A DNA stretch of 64,000 bases from Octopus vulgaris (taxonomy: Eukaryota), in assembly GCA_951406725.2 (NCBI GenBank), contig OX597825.1, positions 75,454,001 to 75,518,000 on the forward strand. The letters are read 5' to 3'. The position numbers were made by a program. Of the stretch, positions 12,908-63,888 are shown piece after piece. Each line of letters begins with the position of its first letter. Within the stretch, counting starts at the first letter, position 1.

Positions 12908-15900
12908 TTGTCTCTGTGTGTCTGTATGTGTGTAAATACACGTACACACACACATATTCCTTTATAGAACAGAGGTGACAGTTGAAACAGTCAATCACTA
13001 CAGATAATAAGTCAGTAAATATTGAGTGAAAAATATTTTGGGATAGAAAACGTTGAAACCTGCTCATATTTTTGTGTATATGTATCAATGTATCCAGCTA
13101 TTAATAATTCTACCATAACTGCCTGATATATTGCAATAGCTGAGATGCATTAATATTGGACAAACATTTTCAAAAAATCCTTGCATCTCCTTTGATATTT
13201 CAATTTTGTGTCTTTTCCTCCATAAACACATAATAATTTAAAGTACCAAGAATTGTAAAAGACTATTTTGTGTCTTTTCCTCCATAAACACATAATTTAA
13301 AGTACCAAGAACTGTAAAGGACTATTTTGTGACTTTTCCTCCGTAAACACATAATAATTTGAAATACGAAGATTGACAAAGGAATATATATTTTTCCTTT
13401 ACAGTTTGTAAATACAGTTCAATAGATAAAAGTAAGGAAACAGATAATACTCATCTCTAATATTTGATATAGAAATTCTAATCAACTTTGTTTAGAAAAG
13501 ATCTGAGAAAAATAAAAGTAAAACCAGTATTTGTTAAGAATATCCACTTCATTCTCTCCACAACCATGTCACTTTTTTACAGCTGGAGTATTTTAATTTT
13601 CACCTGTCTTCATTTCTCAAGTAAGTTCTCAATTTTATTTTTATTATTTATTCGTGAAATCACTGAATATGGCTGTGTATGATCAAGAAACTTGTTTTCA
13701 GGTCAGTTTCTTTTGTATGACAACTTGGATTATTATCTTGTTTGATAGTCTTAGGTTGACCAAAGACTATGAAGTGGAACTTGATAGGTGGGGATTCTAT
13801 GGAAGCATCTTGTAGAGACTGTTTCTGTCCTTGATCTTGGGCGGTTAACTTTATCTATTACTTCATTTAATCTTTTCCATATTAAAATACCTTGTTGTAT
13901 TACACAAACTTTCTGTTTTAAACTGATCCAAATGAAAACCATACATCAAACTTTCATATTAATTTATGTTCCAAATAACAGCTTGATAATGATGAGGTTA
14001 TTTTACTAAATTCCTCATTTTCAAAATTAACAGGTAAAGGCAATATGGTAGTAAACGGTAAAATGTTATCTGGCTCTTGGGAAATTTCTGCAGAATTCAC
14101 TGTGCTGTAGTCATTTGAACTTTATATCTTTGTACATAGACAATTTGTTTGCATCACTTTTTTTTCATGACACTGAGTGATTACAGAACTTTCTCCACCA
14201 GAAATATAAAGAAAAAATATAGTTTTCTTTAAAAAATTACAAATCTTTCTCCAAATCACAATTACCTTTAAAAAACTTCCTTTTAAATTTATTGAACTAA
14301 AATCAGTTAAATTTTATAATAACAAATCAATATTATATTATATTTCTTTATTATTATTTCTTCCTTGTAAGGCAGTGAGCTGGCAGAAACGTTAGCACGC
14401 TGGGCAAAATGCTTATCAGTATTTTGTCTGTCTTTACATTCTGAGTTCAAATTCCGCCGAGGTCAACTTTGCCTTTCATCCTTTCAGGGTCGATAAATTA
14501 AGTACCAGTTATGCTCTGAGGTCGATGTAATCGACTTAATCCCTTTGTCTGTCCTTGTTTGTCCCCTCTATGTTTAGCCCCTTGTGGGCAATAAAGAAAT
14601 AAGAACTGCTAGCATGCCGGGCGAAATGCTTAGCAGTATTTTGTCTGTCTTTACATTCTGAGATCAAATTCCGCCGAGGTCAACTTTGCCTTTCATCCTT
14701 GTGCCTAGAGTAGAAAAGATTATTTCTTCATTGTGAAGTCACATTACCTAATGGCCAGGATGATAGGTTCACAACCATAAGTTTGTAATTTCAGTTCCTG
14801 GACTGGGCAATACATAGTATCCTTGAGCAAGGTGCTTCATTTCATGTCACTCCATACTGTTCAGCTGAGAATATGTACCAATCTATAACTGGCACTTTTT
14901 CTCCAGCTGAGTTCACTGGAGCCAAGCGTTGGTGCAGCCTTCTTTTCCTCCAGCTGTCACATTCATGATGTTACACTGTATTAAGGGCAGGAGATCTCAG
15001 AGGGTGTCTATGTTTACCTGTGCATACATAAAGATCTGAAACAAATGACAAAAGTATGTTACATGTTACCAGGTCATATTCACTTGCCAATGACAGCTCT
15101 GCTTTATTTCTATGTCATAATGAAATACTGTAAACTAATTATAAACTCTGATAATGAATTAAGGACTTGATTACACATATAAGGATTATAAAGATTTGAG
15201 TTTATTTAAAGTGTTTAGTCTGAAGGCAAGTATGGGCTATGTGATCAAGAAGCTTGTTTTGTAAGTACATGGTTTTGAGTTCAATCCCATTTTGCAGCAC
15301 CTTGAGTAAATATTTTCTATCATAGCCATAAGTGGACCAGTATATCCTGGACAAAATTTGGAAGAGAGACATCAAGTAGAAGCCCATCAGAGGGAGCATT
15401 TCTGTTACTGAGTGGAAAACTTAATCTTCTCTTAATTTCAGGGCTGGATTTAGACTTGATGAGGCCCTAAACTATTTGAGATAATGAGGCTCTTTATATG
15501 TCCAGACGTCCTATGTTAGCAACAAATTGTCGGTGTTTCTTGTGTTTAATATACTATGCGATCTTTAGGACCTATAGATATCAGAAGCCATTTGCACTTG
15601 ATAAAATATGCATTTTATCAAAATAATTGTTAAATTGAAATACAATTAAGAGGTATATTAATAGTGAAATAGTTATTAATCTCTGACTCAAAATTATTTT
15701 TTATTCATAACAAACTTAATGCAAACACTTGGTAAAAAAATAAAAGTTCTTTTAAAAGCACAATTTACAAAGGCTTATAATCTAATCTCTAGAAACTTGC
15801 TGTAAGGAATTAATGCATCTATGCAATACCCATTATATTGTATAATTTCAAGATTTACTGTACACTGTGTATACAAACACAACACAACATGATCTAAATT

Positions 15901-61120: not shown

Positions 61121-63888
61121 GGGCTTCTTTCTGTTTCCATCTACCATATCCACTTGCTAGGCTCCGGTTGGCCTGAGACTATAAGTAGCACATCACAAAA
61201 CAAGCTTATTGTGTTTGTGTATGTGTATATGTTTGTATACTTCATTTTGTTTTTTGCTTATATTTTAAGAGTTGAAGCATGTAAATAGAAGGGAAGGATT
61301 AAATAAAAATGAATTTTAAAAAAAATCTTTGAACTTTGTTAAGGGATAACTTAAATGTTTTGCACCACATACAGACATATTTCTGAATTATTATTATTAT
61401 TATTTCATAACTATAGTTCTAAGGCTAACTCTGAATGTTTCTATTAAAAGTATATACATAGATATATGTATGTATATATATATATATATATATATATTGG
61501 TTATTGCAGATGCAAAATGACAAAAAATAAGAACAAACAGAAAGGTAACACATCAACTCTAAAAGTCAGTGGTGAAGATAATGGCTGTTGGAACCTGCCA
61601 TATGCAAGTCAAGAATCAGGCTGTGTCCTGCGAAACTCTGAAGAAATTTATGCAAACATGAATCCAAGCTTAAAAATGCCACCGAGACTCCATGATAGTG
61701 AAGGATATTGGGGACTATAAATAAAAACCCTTCCTTAGCCTGTTTATAATCCTGATGTTGAATAACTTTACACACAATCTATCATATATACATGCTGACA
61801 ATAATTTCAGTGTTGAGCAATTTGGTCTTTTTCTTCTATATTTGGGAAATTTTCCTTTTTTAAGTCAGCCATGTTATTAACATGAAAATTTGAAAAATAT
61901 ACTACATTACCTTTTTTCACTTTTTTCAGTCTTAGACTGCGTCCATGCTGGGGCACCGTCTTGACGATAAATATTTTCTAAAAGATGTATTTTTAACTTA
62001 AAAAGAAATCTAAAGATTAAAAAAATGTTTCAAAAATGATTCTTTTTGTTTTAATTTATTTTTTAATTAATTCATCATCATCGTCATTATCATCACCACC
62101 ACACCACCACCAACAACAACAACACCACCATCATTATTATTATTAAGGCATTGAGTTGGCAAGATCGTTAGCACACTGGCTGAAAAGCTTGGCAGTATTT
62201 CACCTGTTTTCATGTTCTGAGTACAAGTTCCACCGATGTTGACTTCACCTTTCATCCTTTCAGGGTTGATATATTCAGTACCAGTTGAGTACTGGGGGTC
62301 AATATAACTGACTAGCCCCCTCCCCCAAATTTCAAACCTTGTACCTATAACAGAAAGGATCATTGTCATCATCATGATCGTTGTTGTTGTTGCTATTATT
62401 ATTATTATTAAATTGAGAGTGGAGAGAACTACTAGCATTCCAGAAAAAATGCTTAGTGGTACTTCATCTGTCTTCAGGTTTGTAGTTCAAATTCCCCTGA
62501 AGTTAGCTTTGCCTTTATTCTTTTGGGGTTCAATGACCACTGAGCTCTGGGTTTGATGTAACCAACTCCCTCCCCCAAATTTCAGGCCTTGTGCTTACAG
62601 TAGAATACATTATTACTATTTGGTTTCCAATTTTGGCACAAAGCCAGCAATTTAGGAGAGAGGCTAGTCGAAGCCTTCAATTGACTTTGCTAAAGCCTTC
62701 AATTCTGTGCCACACAAACTACTCAGGACCAAACTCTCTGCAATGGGTATAAAAGATGATCTCTATTACTGGTTAAAGTCCTTAATTCTTGGATGGAAAG
62801 AAGTAGTCACTGTTGTAGGACATCATTCTTCACCTTATGAAATGACATCAGATGACTGGCTTCTGTGCTGGTGGCATGTAAAAAGCACCAACCGATCGTG
62901 GCTGTTGCCAGCCTCCCCTGGCCCCTGTGCCAGTGGAATGTAAAAAGCACCCACTACACTCACAGAGTGGTTGACATCAGGAAGGGCATCAAGCTGTAGA
63001 AACACTGCCAGATCAGAATGGAGCCTGGTGCAGCCTCCTGGCTTCCCAGACCCCAGTCAAACCGTCCAACCCATGCTAGCATGGAAAACGGACGTTAAAT
63101 GATGATGATGATGATGATGAGATCCTATAAACTATAGATCCTTCTTGTAATTAGACTTGGATGCAATGCAATGATGGATTACCAACAAGCAACAAGTTCA
63201 CTGAGGGCGAGTGTTTCACCATGCATTCTGGGGAAAAAACTCAGCTTTTACATACTCCCTCAACAAGACCAATCTTAAGAAGTCTGTTAATGAATGCGAC
63301 CCAGGTATTACCATCAACAGCAATTTGTGTCGGACAAACCACATCTCTGAGATTGTCAAGAAACCTGAAAGTGTCTTAGCATTATTCAGTAAGATCTTTG
63401 TCAGCTGCTCTCTAGCAATCTATCTAAAGATGTACATGACTCTGGTATGACCACATTTAGAGTTTGCATCACCAACCTGGAACCCCTAACTTTCTTGTCA
63501 TATCAATCTCCTGGAAAATGTTCAGAAATGTGCAAACAGATAAATTCCTACCACCAGGATTCTATCACTCTCTGAACGTCTTGCTTCCCGAGGCATGGAC
63601 ACTTTAAAGCTCCAACTGACCTGGTAGACATCCATAAGATCATTCTAATGCAGGAGCCAGTCCTGATTTGATTAGACTTGATGCTCCAAAATACTAGCAG
63701 GTACAAATGGTCTTAATAGCCACTAAACCTTTTTCTATTTTCTCTCCCTGTTTATTTCTGTGTTCCTTTCTGTCGAAGAGCATAGGCTGGAAATGTAAAA
63801 GACTGTCTCACTTCCCGAGCATTAAACCAATACATCTGTTTGTTGTTTACACACCAGTCTTCATCATTTGTTTTTTTGTAAATTCTCT

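What the first reader, a model, noticed from the sequence alone, without database searches (positions are those of the whole stretch)
13566..61720. Hidden 12-exon gene for an unrecognised single-pass receptor with four tandem beta-rich repeats and a phosphotyrosine signalling tail
Seen: twelve GT-AG exons (13566-13620, 22851-23041, 25896-25980, 31460-31662, 35012-35105, 36504-36727, 40401-40497, 44512-44738, 46905-47004, 50683-50727, 54238-54301, 61510-61720) join in matching phases into one stop-free 1596-nt ORF (531 aa). The layout is signal peptide, four repeats, stalk, 21-aa TM helix, basic stop-transfer, ~70-aa tail. The ectodomain has many N-x-S/T sequons (NKS, NQS, NST, NIS, NRT, NLS, NLT, NFT, NMT). 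The ORF track shows only scraps of it. Inference: the architecture resembles immune or adhesion receptors, but the repeats lack obvious Ig, FN3, LRR, lectin or cadherin signatures. I cannot assign it to a named family, so it may be a lineage-specific, fast-evolving receptor.
Basis: partly seen in the sequence, partly recalled or inferred. Interest (0 to 1): 0.85.

Follow-up and report, generated by a model that had tools for sequence, protein, structure and literature searches.

The report
Octopus-only four-domain membrane receptor gene
The twelve exons form a real Octopus vulgaris gene for a single-pass surface glycoprotein; it belongs to an uncharacterised gene family seen so far only in octopods and is already in public databases as an "uncharacterized protein".

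Summary
All 12 exons are open in the stated frames, and all 11 junctions are AG/GT with strong splice signals. The exon peptides lie end to end on a public Octopus sinensis protein, LOC115218043 isoform X2 (532 aa, 505 of 524 compared residues identical). Exons 4-12 also match a truncated O. vulgaris "hypothetical protein" of 372 aa at 100%. So the gene is not hidden, but the O. vulgaris model lacks the first 159 residues.

No known family fits:
- Pfam gave nothing for the exon peptides or for any of 33 family members.
- No PDB sequence is related.
- Foldseek gave only generic beta-sandwich matches with TM-score at most 0.2.

AlphaFold models are confident (mean pLDDT 78 and 82). They show four all-beta domains, one membrane helix and a disordered tail.

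The family has 23 representatives among 1.84 billion proteins. All 22 with a name are octopods: 21 from three Octopus species and one from Argonauta hians. The outermost domain varies most. The tail tyrosine motifs (YxNM and a C-terminal GYWGL) recur in paralogues, but phosphotyrosine signalling is only inferred.

Verdict: a real, already predicted member of an undescribed octopod receptor-like family, of moderate interest.

The parts
13566..13620 (+). Exon 1: ATG (A at -3) plus the hydrophobic signal-peptide core. Ends in phase 1.
   Evidence: 17 of 18 residues identical to P0002 1-18. Helix 2-19 in the model.
22851..23041 (+). Exon 2: first part of domain 1, which starts ATKWKV. The most variable exon.
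   Evidence: 54 of 63 identical to P0002 20-82. Hit by 12 family proteins in tblastn.
25896..25980 (+). Exon 3: second part of domain 1, with the Cys pair CQSAC.
   Evidence: 28 of 28 identical to P0002 83-110.
31460..31662 (+). Exon 4: first part of domain 2 (TQWNLEV...). The O. vulgaris database model P0001 starts at an internal Met here.
   Evidence: Hit by 25 family proteins.
35012..35105 (+). Exon 5: second part of domain 2, with the Cys pair YSC...HEC.
   Evidence: 31 of 31 identical to P0001 and P0002. Hit by 20 family proteins.
36504..36727 (+). Exon 6: first part of domain 3 (STWRIEL...).
   Evidence: 74 of 74 identical to P0001 and 72 of 74 to P0002. Hit by 22 family proteins.
40401..40497 (+). 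Exon 7: second part of domain 3, with the Cys pair YGC...YSC.
   Evidence: 32 of 32 identical to P0001 and P0002. Hit by 23 family proteins.
44512..44738 (+). Exon 8: first part of domain 4 (KNWLLKV...). The best conserved large exon in the family.
   Evidence: 75 of 75 identical to P0001 and P0002. Hit by 20 family proteins, including the Argonauta protein P0014.
46905..47004 (+). Exon 9: second part of domain 4, without a Cys pair.
   Evidence: 33 of 33 identical to P0001 and 32 of 33 to P0002. Hit by 13 family proteins.
50683..50727 (+). Exon 10: short stalk with the sequon NMT.
   Evidence: 14 of 14 identical to P0001 and P0002.
54238..54301 (+). Exon 11: transmembrane helix.
   Evidence: 20 of 20 identical to P0001 and P0002. 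Helix 437-471 in the model.
61510..61720 (+). Exon 12: basic stop-transfer stretch and a cytoplasmic tail of about 69 aa with YASQ, YANM and the C-terminal GYWGL. Stop TAA at 61718-61720.
   Evidence: 69 of 69 identical to P0001 and P0002. pLDDT below 50 in the model, so predicted disordered.
61720..61725 (+). AATAAA hexamer overlapping the last base of the stop codon. A possible polyadenylation signal; whether it is used is unknown.
   Evidence: Read directly. That AATAAA is the polyadenylation signal is recalled knowledge.

Best explanation
Shown:
- This is a real protein-coding gene of Octopus vulgaris. It is the orthologue of O. sinensis LOC115218043 and O. bimaculoides LOC106873229.
- It encodes a 531-aa type I membrane protein: signal peptide, four tandem all-beta domains of about 92-110 aa, a short stalk, one membrane helix and a disordered tail of about 69 aa.
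- Each domain is built from an exon pair bounded by phase-1 introns, with a phase-0 intron inside.
- Each domain opens with a Trp-containing strand. Domains 1-3 carry a Cys pair placed in their last two strands.
- It belongs to a multigene family with at least seven lineages older than the O. sinensis/O. bimaculoides split. Named members come only from octopods. The family has no detectable relation to any Pfam family or solved structure.

Inferred:
- The protein sits in the plasma membrane and is N-glycosylated.
- It binds a ligand or partner with its membrane-distal domains, which vary most between paralogues and orthologues.
- It passes the signal on through tail tyrosines. The YxNM motif fits the consensus for Grb2-type SH2 domains once phosphorylated. 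The C-terminal GYWGL fits an SH2 docking site or AP-2-mediated internalisation.
- This would make it a recognition receptor in the style of the paired immune or adhesion receptors of other animals.
For: Gene model:
- Frames and junctions.
- Splice-signal enrichment.
- Colinear match of every exon to two independent public models.
- Family proteins hit only these exons in the window.

Architecture:
- AlphaFold2 of the orthologue with a 23-row family alignment gave mean pLDDT 78.4 and pTM 0.67. 423 of 532 residues are at 70 or above. It shows four beta blocks, a helix at 437-471 and a tail below 50.
- A second model (P0012: domain 3 plus parts of its neighbours) gave pLDDT 82.1.

Family:
- 24 hits at E<=1e-3 among 1.84e9 representatives. 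One is a spurious membrane-helix-only match to a protocadherin-like protein.
- 21 of 21 named hits are Octopus vulgaris, sinensis or bimaculoides. One more is Argonauta hians.
- Several members lie on contigs of the same chromosome-scale length.
- The quick tree gives 1:1 orthology with P0003 at SH-aLRT 100.

Variability gradient, as family mean pairwise identity and O. sinensis-O. bimaculoides orthologue identity:
- D1: 0.33 and 0.46.
- D2: 0.41 and 0.62.
- D3: 0.42 and 0.65.
- D4: 0.47 and 0.76.
- The signal peptide is 0.84 between orthologues, higher than D1.

Tail:
- YxNM and the C-terminal GYWGL are kept in the 63-66% identical O. bimaculoides orthologue.
- YxN[LIM] occurs in 7 of the 16 tails recovered (YANM twice, YSNM, YQNL, YDNI, YENI, YENL).
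- A YxxPhi motif within the last 8 residues occurs in 6 of them: GYWGL three times, YEEL twice, YLEI once.
- What these motifs bind is recalled textbook knowledge, not a tool result.
Against: - No RNA, protein, localisation or phosphorylation data were available.
- The tail fits neither the ITIM consensus (position -2 is Glu in both candidate sites) nor the ITAM consensus (15-residue spacing, first motif ends in Met).
- It has no kinase domain and no membrane-proximal Pro-rich box.
- YASQ is not kept in the O. bimaculoides orthologue.
- In 18 of the 35 family proteins examined, my hydrophobicity scan found no membrane helix. Many are truncated models, but some could be secreted forms.
- Sequon enrichment is only marginal.
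- High variability of domain 1 could reflect relaxed constraint rather than ligand-driven diversification. No dN/dS was possible.
- Sequence similarity between the four repeats is weak.
Confidence: 0.5

Rival explanations
1. Same protein, but not a phosphotyrosine signalling receptor. It would be an adhesion or coat glycoprotein, or an endocytic cargo receptor. Its tail tyrosines would act unphosphorylated as YxxPhi sorting signals read by clathrin adaptors. The GYWGL at the very C-terminus is of the G-Y-x-x-Phi type known from lysosomal membrane proteins.
For: - The C-terminal GYWGL is kept in the orthologue.
- Six of the 16 recovered tails carry YxxPhi within the last 8 residues: GYWGL three times, IYEELA, IYEELT and IYLEIIQ.
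- There is no ITIM or ITAM, no kinase domain and no Pro-rich box.
- The motif definitions are recalled textbook knowledge.
Against: - YxN[LIM] also recurs in 7 of the 16 tails, and YEEL in 2. These fit the consensus sites of SH2 domains (Grb2-type and Src-type, both recalled) better than a pure sorting signal would require.
- The tail (about 69 aa) is far longer than the roughly 11-aa tails in which G-Y-x-x-Phi acts as a lysosomal signal (recalled).
Confidence: 0.3
2. The four domains are not a new kind of module. They would be very divergent members of a known beta-sandwich superfamily (Ig-like, FN3/cytokine-receptor, CUB as in CDCP1, or C2-like). The 'unassignable' status would then reflect fast sequence change and the limits of the libraries at hand. 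This concerns ancestry and is compatible with either functional reading above.
For: - The whole-protein Foldseek search gave multi-beta-sandwich proteins at E 5e-5 to 1e-3: ferlins with C2 domains and LILRB3/PirB with Ig-like domains.
- The second model gave factor XIII barrel domains and the extended-synaptotagmin C2A-C2B pair as best matches.
- The Atlas feature search listed CUB and CDCP1 clusters at 0.77.
- Two exons per domain with phase-1 borders is typical of shuffled extracellular modules (recalled knowledge).
Against: - No Pfam match at E<=10 to Ig, fn3, CUB, CDCP1 or C2 models, for the exon peptides or for P0002.
- No such match at E<=0.01 for the 33 family members scanned.
- No PDB sequence or profile match.
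- Foldseek TM-scores were at most 0.14 and 0.24, with no hit at E<=1e-3 for the domain-3 model, in either the PDB or the viral library.
- Atlas scores below 0.9 are leads only, and the search of named clusters gave no usable hit.
- The Cys positions do not fit the Ig B-F pair.
Confidence: 0.45
3. The model is an annotation artefact or a decaying pseudogene copy that happens to stay open.
For: - No transcript evidence could be examined here.
- The O. vulgaris public model is truncated.
- The O. vulgaris copy has an unpaired Cys in domain 1, where most paralogues have a pair.
Against: - All 12 exons are open, with strong splice sites.
- The frame is intact in three Octopus species at 63-97% identity.
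- AlphaFold confidence is high for the ectodomain.
- The signal peptide, membrane helix and C-terminal motif are conserved.
Confidence: 0.03

Closest known systems
Octopus sinensis uncharacterized protein LOC115218043 isoform X2 (P0002, 532 aa), and Octopus vulgaris 'Hypothetical predicted protein' (P0001, 372 aa)
   Same: The same gene. P0001 is 100% identical over exons 4 (part) to 12. P0002 is the orthologue: 505 of 524 compared residues are identical and all 11 junctions are the same.
   Different: P0001 lacks exons 1-3 and most of exon 4, which is 159 residues. P0002 differs by 19 substitutions and one indel; 15 of the substitutions and the indel lie in exons 2 and 4. Neither record carries a name, a domain or a function.
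Paired Ig-superfamily receptors of vertebrates (LILRB3/PirB type)
   Same: It works like them in outline (family properties recalled):
- type I membrane protein
- a string of about 100-aa beta-sandwich domains
- a multigene family with variable distal domains
- tyrosine motifs in a short tail
LILRB3/PirB chains appear in the Foldseek list at E 2.5e-4.
   Different: - No Ig Pfam match.
- No B-strand Cys, C-strand Trp, F-strand Cys core. The Cys pair sits 4-14 residues apart at the domain end.
- TM-score is only 0.13.
- There is no ITIM.
CDCP1 (CUB domain-containing protein 1)
   Same: A single-pass glycoprotein with tandem beta-sandwich modules and a short tail whose tyrosines are phosphorylated by Src-family kinases (recalled). 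CDCP1 and mollusc CUB clusters were the only named clusters in the Atlas feature search, at score 0.77.
   Different: - A score of 0.77 is below the tool's own threshold for more than a lead.
- No match to CUB (PF00431) or to the three CDCP1-specific Pfam families at E<=10.
- No CUB structure appears in the top 50 of either PDB fold search.
- The search of named clusters with the ectodomain alone gave no usable hit.
Class II cytokine receptors with four FN3 domains (IFNAR1 type)
   Same: Recalled, not tested against sequences: four domains of about 100 aa, each encoded by two exons, with a disulfide near the end of some domains and YxxQ-type docking sites in cytokine-receptor tails. This gene has the same exon-pair layout and a YASQ.
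   Different: - No fn3, Tissue_fac or Interfer-bind Pfam match.
- No membrane-proximal Pro-rich box in the tail.
- YASQ is not conserved in O. bimaculoides.
- No such structure appears among the top Foldseek hits.
C2 domains of ferlins and extended synaptotagmin 2
   Same: Best Foldseek E-values: myoferlin 4.9e-5, probability 0.93, and extended synaptotagmin 2 C2A-C2B at 2.4e-2. Both are strings of 8-stranded beta sandwiches.
   Different: - TM-scores are 0.14 or less and 0.19, at RMSD 17-24 A, so this is a generic likeness.
- C2 domains are cytoplasmic Ca2+/lipid binders (recalled), whereas these domains lie outside the cell.
- There is no C2 Pfam match.

Membership tests
Unnamed octopod family around LOC115218043 | Full-length colinear sequence match to family members | tested here: met
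   phmmer gave 15 representatives at E<=1e-30. Every exon maps in order onto P0002. Exons 2 and 4-9 are each hit by 12-25 family proteins.
Unnamed octopod family around LOC115218043 | Domain-opening Trp strand (xxWxVxV) and a Cys pair at the end of domains 1-3 | tested here: met
   W25, W114, W214, W321 and C98/C102, C193/C206, C299/C313 in P0002. The same columns are conserved in alignment A1. Domain 4 has no Cys pair.
Immunoglobulin superfamily | Match to an Ig-type Pfam model | tested here: not met
   No Ig family at E<=10 for 9 exon peptides or for P0002. None at E<=0.01 for 33 family members.
Immunoglobulin superfamily | Cys (strand B), Trp (strand C), Cys (strand F) core with the Cys 55-75 residues apart (definition recalled) | tested here: not met
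   The first exons of domains 2-4 contain no Cys. The Cys pairs are 4, 13 and 14 residues apart at the domain ends.
Immunoglobulin superfamily | Ig-like fold by structure comparison | tested here: inconclusive
   LILRB3/PirB at E 2.5e-4 but TM 0.13. No hit at E<=1e-3 for the domain-3 model. No single-domain model could be made, and AlphaFold DB was not on hand.
CUB / CDCP1 | Match to PF00431 or to the CDCP1 families PF23665, PF23667, PF23668 | tested here: not met
   Absent at E<=10 and at E<=0.01 in 33 members. The only support is an Atlas feature score of 0.77.
CUB / CDCP1 | CUB jelly-roll fold by structure comparison | tested here: inconclusive
   No CUB-containing chain appears in the 50 listed matches of either PDB search. 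Both queries were multi-domain models.
FN3 / class II cytokine receptors | Match to the fn3, Tissue_fac or Interfer-bind Pfam models | tested here: not met
   None at E<=10.
FN3 / class II cytokine receptors | Membrane-proximal Pro-rich box 1 for JAK binding (definition recalled) | tested here: not met
   The first 40 tail residues contain one Pro and no PxxP.
ITIM/ITAM-bearing immune receptors | ITIM (S/I/V/L)xYxx(I/V/L) or ITAM YxxL/I-x6-12-YxxL/I in the tail (definitions recalled) | tested here: not met
   EIYANM and EGYWGL both have Glu at -2. The two motifs are 15 residues apart and the first ends in Met.
Phosphotyrosine-signalling receptors in general | Tail tyrosines are phosphorylated and bind SH2 proteins | not testable with these tools
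   Only motif conservation could be shown: YxNM and GYWGL are kept in the orthologue, and YxN[LIM] occurs in 7 of the 16 recovered tails.

The most novel reading that the evidence does not exclude
The family defines a new extracellular beta-sandwich module that arose, or diverged beyond recognition, in the octopod lineage. It would have expanded by tandem duplication, domain gain and gene conversion into a diversified set of surface recognition receptors, for non-self, symbiont or contact-chemical cues. Fast-evolving distal domains would be coupled to SH2-adaptor signalling. That would make it an octopod counterpart of vertebrate paired immune receptors, built from an unrelated domain.
Probability: 0.15. 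Interest if true: 0.7.

Novelty: new variant of a known kind. Interest (0 to 1): 0.4.

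Why it matters
Cephalopods have no known diversified surface receptor family for immune or contact recognition comparable to those of vertebrates, snails or sea urchins. That statement is my own knowledge; two literature searches found nothing on this family.

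This family offers a concrete, testable candidate set for such roles:
- It is restricted to octopods, as far as named hits show.
- It has many genes.
- Its variability increases toward the membrane-distal domain.
- Paralogues show signs of gene conversion.
- Tail tyrosine motifs are conserved.

It is also a confident AlphaFold target with no assignable domain family.

On the practical side, the analysis repairs the O. vulgaris gene model, which lacks its signal peptide, domain 1 and most of the first exon of domain 2.

The find is not a surprise in kind. Lineage-restricted unnamed genes are common in octopus genomes, and the protein is already in public databases.

Tried and rejected
- **Pfam** on 9 exon peptides at E<=10 gave only two sub-threshold chance hits, NPP and X8 at E 0.031. 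On P0002 it gave only weak hits, nearly all over the membrane-helix region. On 23 and then 10 further members nothing was shared.
- **PDB by sequence and by profile** gave only a membrane-helix match, phospholemman-like at E 1.3-1.5.
- **Rfam and tRNA scans** of the window found nothing.
- **Foldseek, PDB library.** The whole model gave only generic multi-sandwich matches, and the domain-3 model gave nothing at E<=1e-3.
- **Foldseek, viral library.** Nothing at E<=1e-3.
- **Atlas.** The first call gave unnamed clusters at 0.82-0.86 and CUB/CDCP1 at 0.77. I rejected these as evidence because neither Pfam nor Foldseek backs them. The second call (ectodomain, named clusters only) gave no usable hit.
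As a result, the origin of 13 unnamed representatives stays unknown: P0009, P0011, P0012 and P0015-P0024.
- **Extra exons or paralogues in the window.** None found.
- **UniRef label 'Vitellogenin doma...' on P0030.** No Pfam family supports it.
- **Tree.** The careful tree search did not finish, so only the quick tree is used.
- **Literature.** 13 LOC identifiers of the family were searched, with 0 papers. Three topical searches were seen as listings and abstract starts only, and none describes this family. Supplementary tables, which were closed, could still list these genes in expression data.
- **Not run:**
  - Any search with a joined 12-exon product. Whole-protein analyses used the public O. 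sinensis protein instead.
  - Complex prediction, because no binding claim is made.
  - Genome contigs, which holds only bacteria and archaea.
  - Metagenome contigs and viral contigs, which were closed.

Full report
**1. Is the observation true?**

Yes. The window has no N. All 12 intervals have the stated lengths (55, 191, 85, 203, 94, 224, 97, 227, 100, 45, 64, 211 nt; 1596 in all). Each is open in the phase handed on by the exon before it.

Every internal boundary is AG|exon|GT, and the splice signals are well above background:
- Nine of 11 acceptors have at least 13 pyrimidines in the 18 nt before the AG plus C/T at -3. Only 4.7% of the 3860 AG dinucleotides on this strand do.
- Eight of 11 donors match GTAAGT at 5 or more of 6 positions, against 6.9% of 3934 GT.

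The seven split codons can be read from the exon ends printed. All are sense codons, and they give the residues found at those positions in the public proteins below.

**2. Independent support for the gene.**

The exon 6 peptide found two public proteins:
- An Octopus vulgaris 'Hypothetical predicted protein' of 372 aa (P0001, 100% identical).
- Octopus sinensis 'uncharacterized protein LOC115218043 isoform X2' of 532 aa (P0002, 97%).

So the window is O. vulgaris. Aligned one by one, the 12 exon peptides cover P0002 end to end and in order. Exactly one residue is left between neighbours wherever a codon is split. 505 of 524 compared residues are identical. All 11 junctions therefore equal those of an independent gene model in a sister species. 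P0001 repeats the last 8 junctions but starts at an internal Met in exon 4, so the O. vulgaris record lacks 159 residues.

Two further checks agree:
- A tblastn of 35 family proteins against the window hit only the 12 exons on the + strand. The one exception is the N-terminus of P0018, which is a translated interspersed repeat.
- No interspersed repeat overlaps an exon.

The gene is real as a conserved reading frame. Transcript evidence could not be examined here. It is not 'hidden', but its O. vulgaris annotation is incomplete.

**3. What the protein looks like.**

Whole-protein analyses used the public orthologue P0002, not a joined product.

AlphaFold2 with a 23-row family alignment gave mean pLDDT 78.4 and pTM 0.67. 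The model has these parts:
- A helix at 2-19, the signal peptide.
- Four all-beta blocks at about 23-108, 109-208, 213-317 and 319-423.
- A helix at 437-471, the membrane span and stop-transfer stretch.
- A tail below pLDDT 50.

A second model of a shorter family protein (P0012: domain 3 whole, with parts of domains 2 and 4) gave pLDDT 82.1.

Each domain is encoded by an exon pair: phase 1 in, phase 0 inside, phase 1 out. Each begins with a Trp strand (W25, W114, W214, W321). Domains 1-3 end with a Cys pair (98/102, 193/206, 299/313) that the model places in the last two strands.

The four domains are only faintly alike in sequence. In profile-profile comparison with 30 column-shuffle controls each:

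| Pair | Shuffles reaching the observed score |
|---|---|
| D1-D2 | 0 of 30 |
| D1-D3 | 1 of 30 |
| D2-D3 | 1 of 30 |
| D3-D4 | 1 of 30 |
| D2-D4 | 2 of 30 |
| D1-D4 | 6 of 30 |

'Four repeats' therefore rests mainly on exon structure, landmark residues and the predicted fold.

The ectodomain of P0002 has 11 against 6.4 +/- 2.3 in shuffles, and 4.4% of 2000 shuffles reach that number.

**4. Does it belong to a known family?**

Nothing says so.
- **Pfam:** no family for 9 exon peptides at E<=10 beyond two chance hits at E 0.031. P0002 gave only weak hits, nearly all over the membrane-helix region. Nothing was shared among 23 and 10 further family members.
- **PDB by sequence or family profile:** only a membrane-helix match.
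- **Foldseek, whole model:** ferlins (C2 strings; best E 4.9e-5) and LILRB3/PirB (Ig strings; 2.5e-4), but with TM-scores of 0.14 or less and RMSD above 18 A. This is a generic likeness of multi-sandwich proteins.
- **Foldseek, domain-3 model:** nothing at E<=1e-3 in the PDB. The best matches were factor XIII barrels at 6.8e-3 and the extended-synaptotagmin 2 C2 pair. The viral library also gave nothing.
- **ESM Atlas:** it holds the protein itself. The nearest clusters are unnamed (0.82-0.86), and CUB/CDCP1 clusters score 0.77, below the tool's own threshold for more than a lead. A second call on the ectodomain, restricted to named clusters, gave no usable hit.

The CDCP1 likeness (single pass, tandem sandwiches, Src-phosphorylated tail; recalled) and the IFNAR1-type likeness (four domains, two exons each; recalled) are therefore analogies, not memberships.

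A caveat: I could not fold a single domain alone, and AlphaFold DB was not on hand. A distant link to a known beta-sandwich superfamily remains quite possible.

**5. The family.**

phmmer of P0002 against 1.84 billion representatives found 24 proteins at E<=1e-3, with 20 at 1e-10 and 15 at 1e-30. One of them (P0025, 3002 aa, protocadherin-like) matches only the membrane-helix region and is spurious.

A profile search that returns names gave 21 hits, all Octopus: 6 O. vulgaris, 8 O. sinensis and 7 O. bimaculoides. All are 'uncharacterized' or 'hypothetical'. Several lie on contigs of the same chromosome-scale length in each species. One divergent member (P0014, 32% identical) is from Argonauta hians.

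A quick maximum-likelihood tree of 25 members gave the following (the careful search did not finish):
- P0003 (O. bimaculoides LOC106873229) is the 1:1 orthologue of this gene, with SH-aLRT 100.
- At least seven lineages are older than the O. sinensis/O. bimaculoides split.
- This orthologue pair is about 0.6 changes per site apart, against 0.18-0.30 for three other pairs.

Identity rises from the outside inwards:

| Region | Family mean pairwise identity | O. sinensis-O. bimaculoides orthologues |
|---|---|---|
| Signal peptide | 0.46 | 0.84 |
| Domain 1 | 0.33 | 0.46 |
| Domain 2 | 0.41 | 0.62 |
| Domain 3 | 0.42 | 0.65 |
| Domain 4 | 0.47 | 0.76 |

Domain number varies. P0004 and P0027 carry a second copy of domain 2. 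P0026 (1009 aa) carries two copies of each domain, so it is either a fused model or an 8-domain form.

**6. How it most likely works.**

Shown: a type I membrane topology is predicted, with glycosylation sequons outside, variable distal domains and a disordered tail.

Inferred: it is a surface recognition molecule whose distal domains bind a partner.

The tail has three tyrosines:
- YASQ is lost in O. bimaculoides.
- YANM is kept as YSNM.
- The C-terminal GYWGL is kept.

Among the 16 family tails recovered, 7 carry YxN[LIM] and 6 carry YxxPhi within the last 8 residues (GYWGL three times, IYEELA, IYEELT, IYLEIIQ). By textbook knowledge (recalled), pYxN is the Grb2-type SH2 site, pYEEL/I the Src-type site, and unphosphorylated YxxPhi the AP-2 sorting signal.

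The tail fits neither ITIM nor ITAM. It has no kinase domain and no Pro-rich box.

I rate 'signalling receptor through phosphotyrosine' as the most likely single reading. It is only modestly ahead of 'adhesion or cargo protein with sorting signals'. Nothing here tests either.

**7. Novelty and verdict.**

The gene and its relatives are in public databases, but they are unnamed and without any domain. I found no paper that mentions them:
- 13 LOC identifiers gave 0 papers.
- Three topical searches, seen as listings and abstract starts only, describe nothing of the kind.
- Supplementary tables were closed and might list these genes in expression data.

The kind of molecule is familiar: a single-pass receptor-like glycoprotein with tandem beta sandwiches and tail tyrosines. 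The domain family is unassigned and, as far as named hits show, octopod-only. I therefore class it as a new variant of a known kind, of moderate interest.

Its interpretation is partly supported:
- Right on the model, the architecture, the lack of a named family and the lineage restriction.
- Wrong on 'hidden'.
- Unproven on signalling and on the rate of evolution in the formal sense.

**8. What stayed unchecked.**
- Transcripts across the junctions.
- Genomes of other cephalopods and molluscs.
- dN/dS, for lack of orthologue DNA.
- The origin of 13 unnamed representatives.
- Single-domain fold assignment.

Noticed in passing
window 3-872 (+): An open frame of 289 aa runs in from the left edge and matches the Pfam Tti2 family (PF10521, E 2.2e-6, above the curated cut-off). 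It is probably the last exon of the neighbouring TELO2-interacting protein 2 gene, about 12.7 kb upstream of the receptor's ATG.
   Followed up: partly
window 11061-11481, 20074-20484, 44892-45333, 59545-59951; also 7141-7474, 16929-17251, 18973-19340, 32302-32493, 45543-45926, 55744-56126, 62853-63117: Two families of interspersed repeats, about 410 bp and about 320-380 bp, with copies 68-92% identical. They fill introns and intergenic DNA on both strands and none touches an exon. The first 33 residues of database protein P0018 are a translation of the first repeat family, which is an annotation artefact.
   Followed up: partly
window 22851-23041 and 31460-31761 (exons 2 and 4 and the start of intron 4): Of the 19 substitutions between the O. 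vulgaris and O. sinensis orthologues, 15 lie in exons 2 and 4, as does the one indel. The exon 4 patch in O. sinensis (NTRSRIEIETTGKFW) is identical to the O. sinensis paralogues P0013 and P0007, while O. vulgaris resembles P0003 and P0004. The C-terminus of P0013 equals the read-through translation of the start of this window's intron 4. This looks like gene conversion or very recent duplication between paralogues.
   Followed up: partly
window 22851-23041 (exon 2, domain 1): Most paralogues have four Cys in domain 1: one in the first strand, one in a 'KCF' motif, and the terminal pair. This gene has lost the 'KCF' Cys. O. vulgaris keeps the now unpaired first-strand Cys (ICLSQ), while O. sinensis has lost it too (IFLSQ).
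   Followed up: no
window 33537-34115, 34214-34672, 37817-38266, 41463-41864 (all -), and 9739-10275 (-): Open frames of 133-192 aa on the opposite strand, inside introns 4, 6 and 7 and in the upstream intergenic DNA. None matched Pfam at E<=0.01. By eye they resemble decayed retroelement endonuclease, reverse-transcriptase or integrase pieces, but that is my impression and was not tested.
   Followed up: partly
window about 12170-12640 and about 43900-44170; many (CA)n/(TA)n tracts, for example 7416-7826, 37032-37502 and 59198-59671: Long low-complexity tracts. These include a tract giving His-, Thr/Ile-, Val/Met- or Ser/Pro-rich frames upstream of exon 1, a poly(A/T) run of more than 100 nt in intron 7, and many dinucleotide microsatellites that produce spurious long ORFs.
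   Followed up: no
database proteins P0004, P0027 and P0026 (relatives, not in the window): Domain number varies within the family. P0004 and P0027 have an extra copy of domain 2. The O. vulgaris model P0026 (1009 aa) hits each of exons 4, 5, 6 and 9 twice, so it is either two neighbouring genes fused in one model or an eight-domain member.
   Followed up: no
window 61720-61725: An AATAAA hexamer overlaps the last base of the stop codon. It may be a polyadenylation signal, or the 3' UTR may run further.
   Followed up: no
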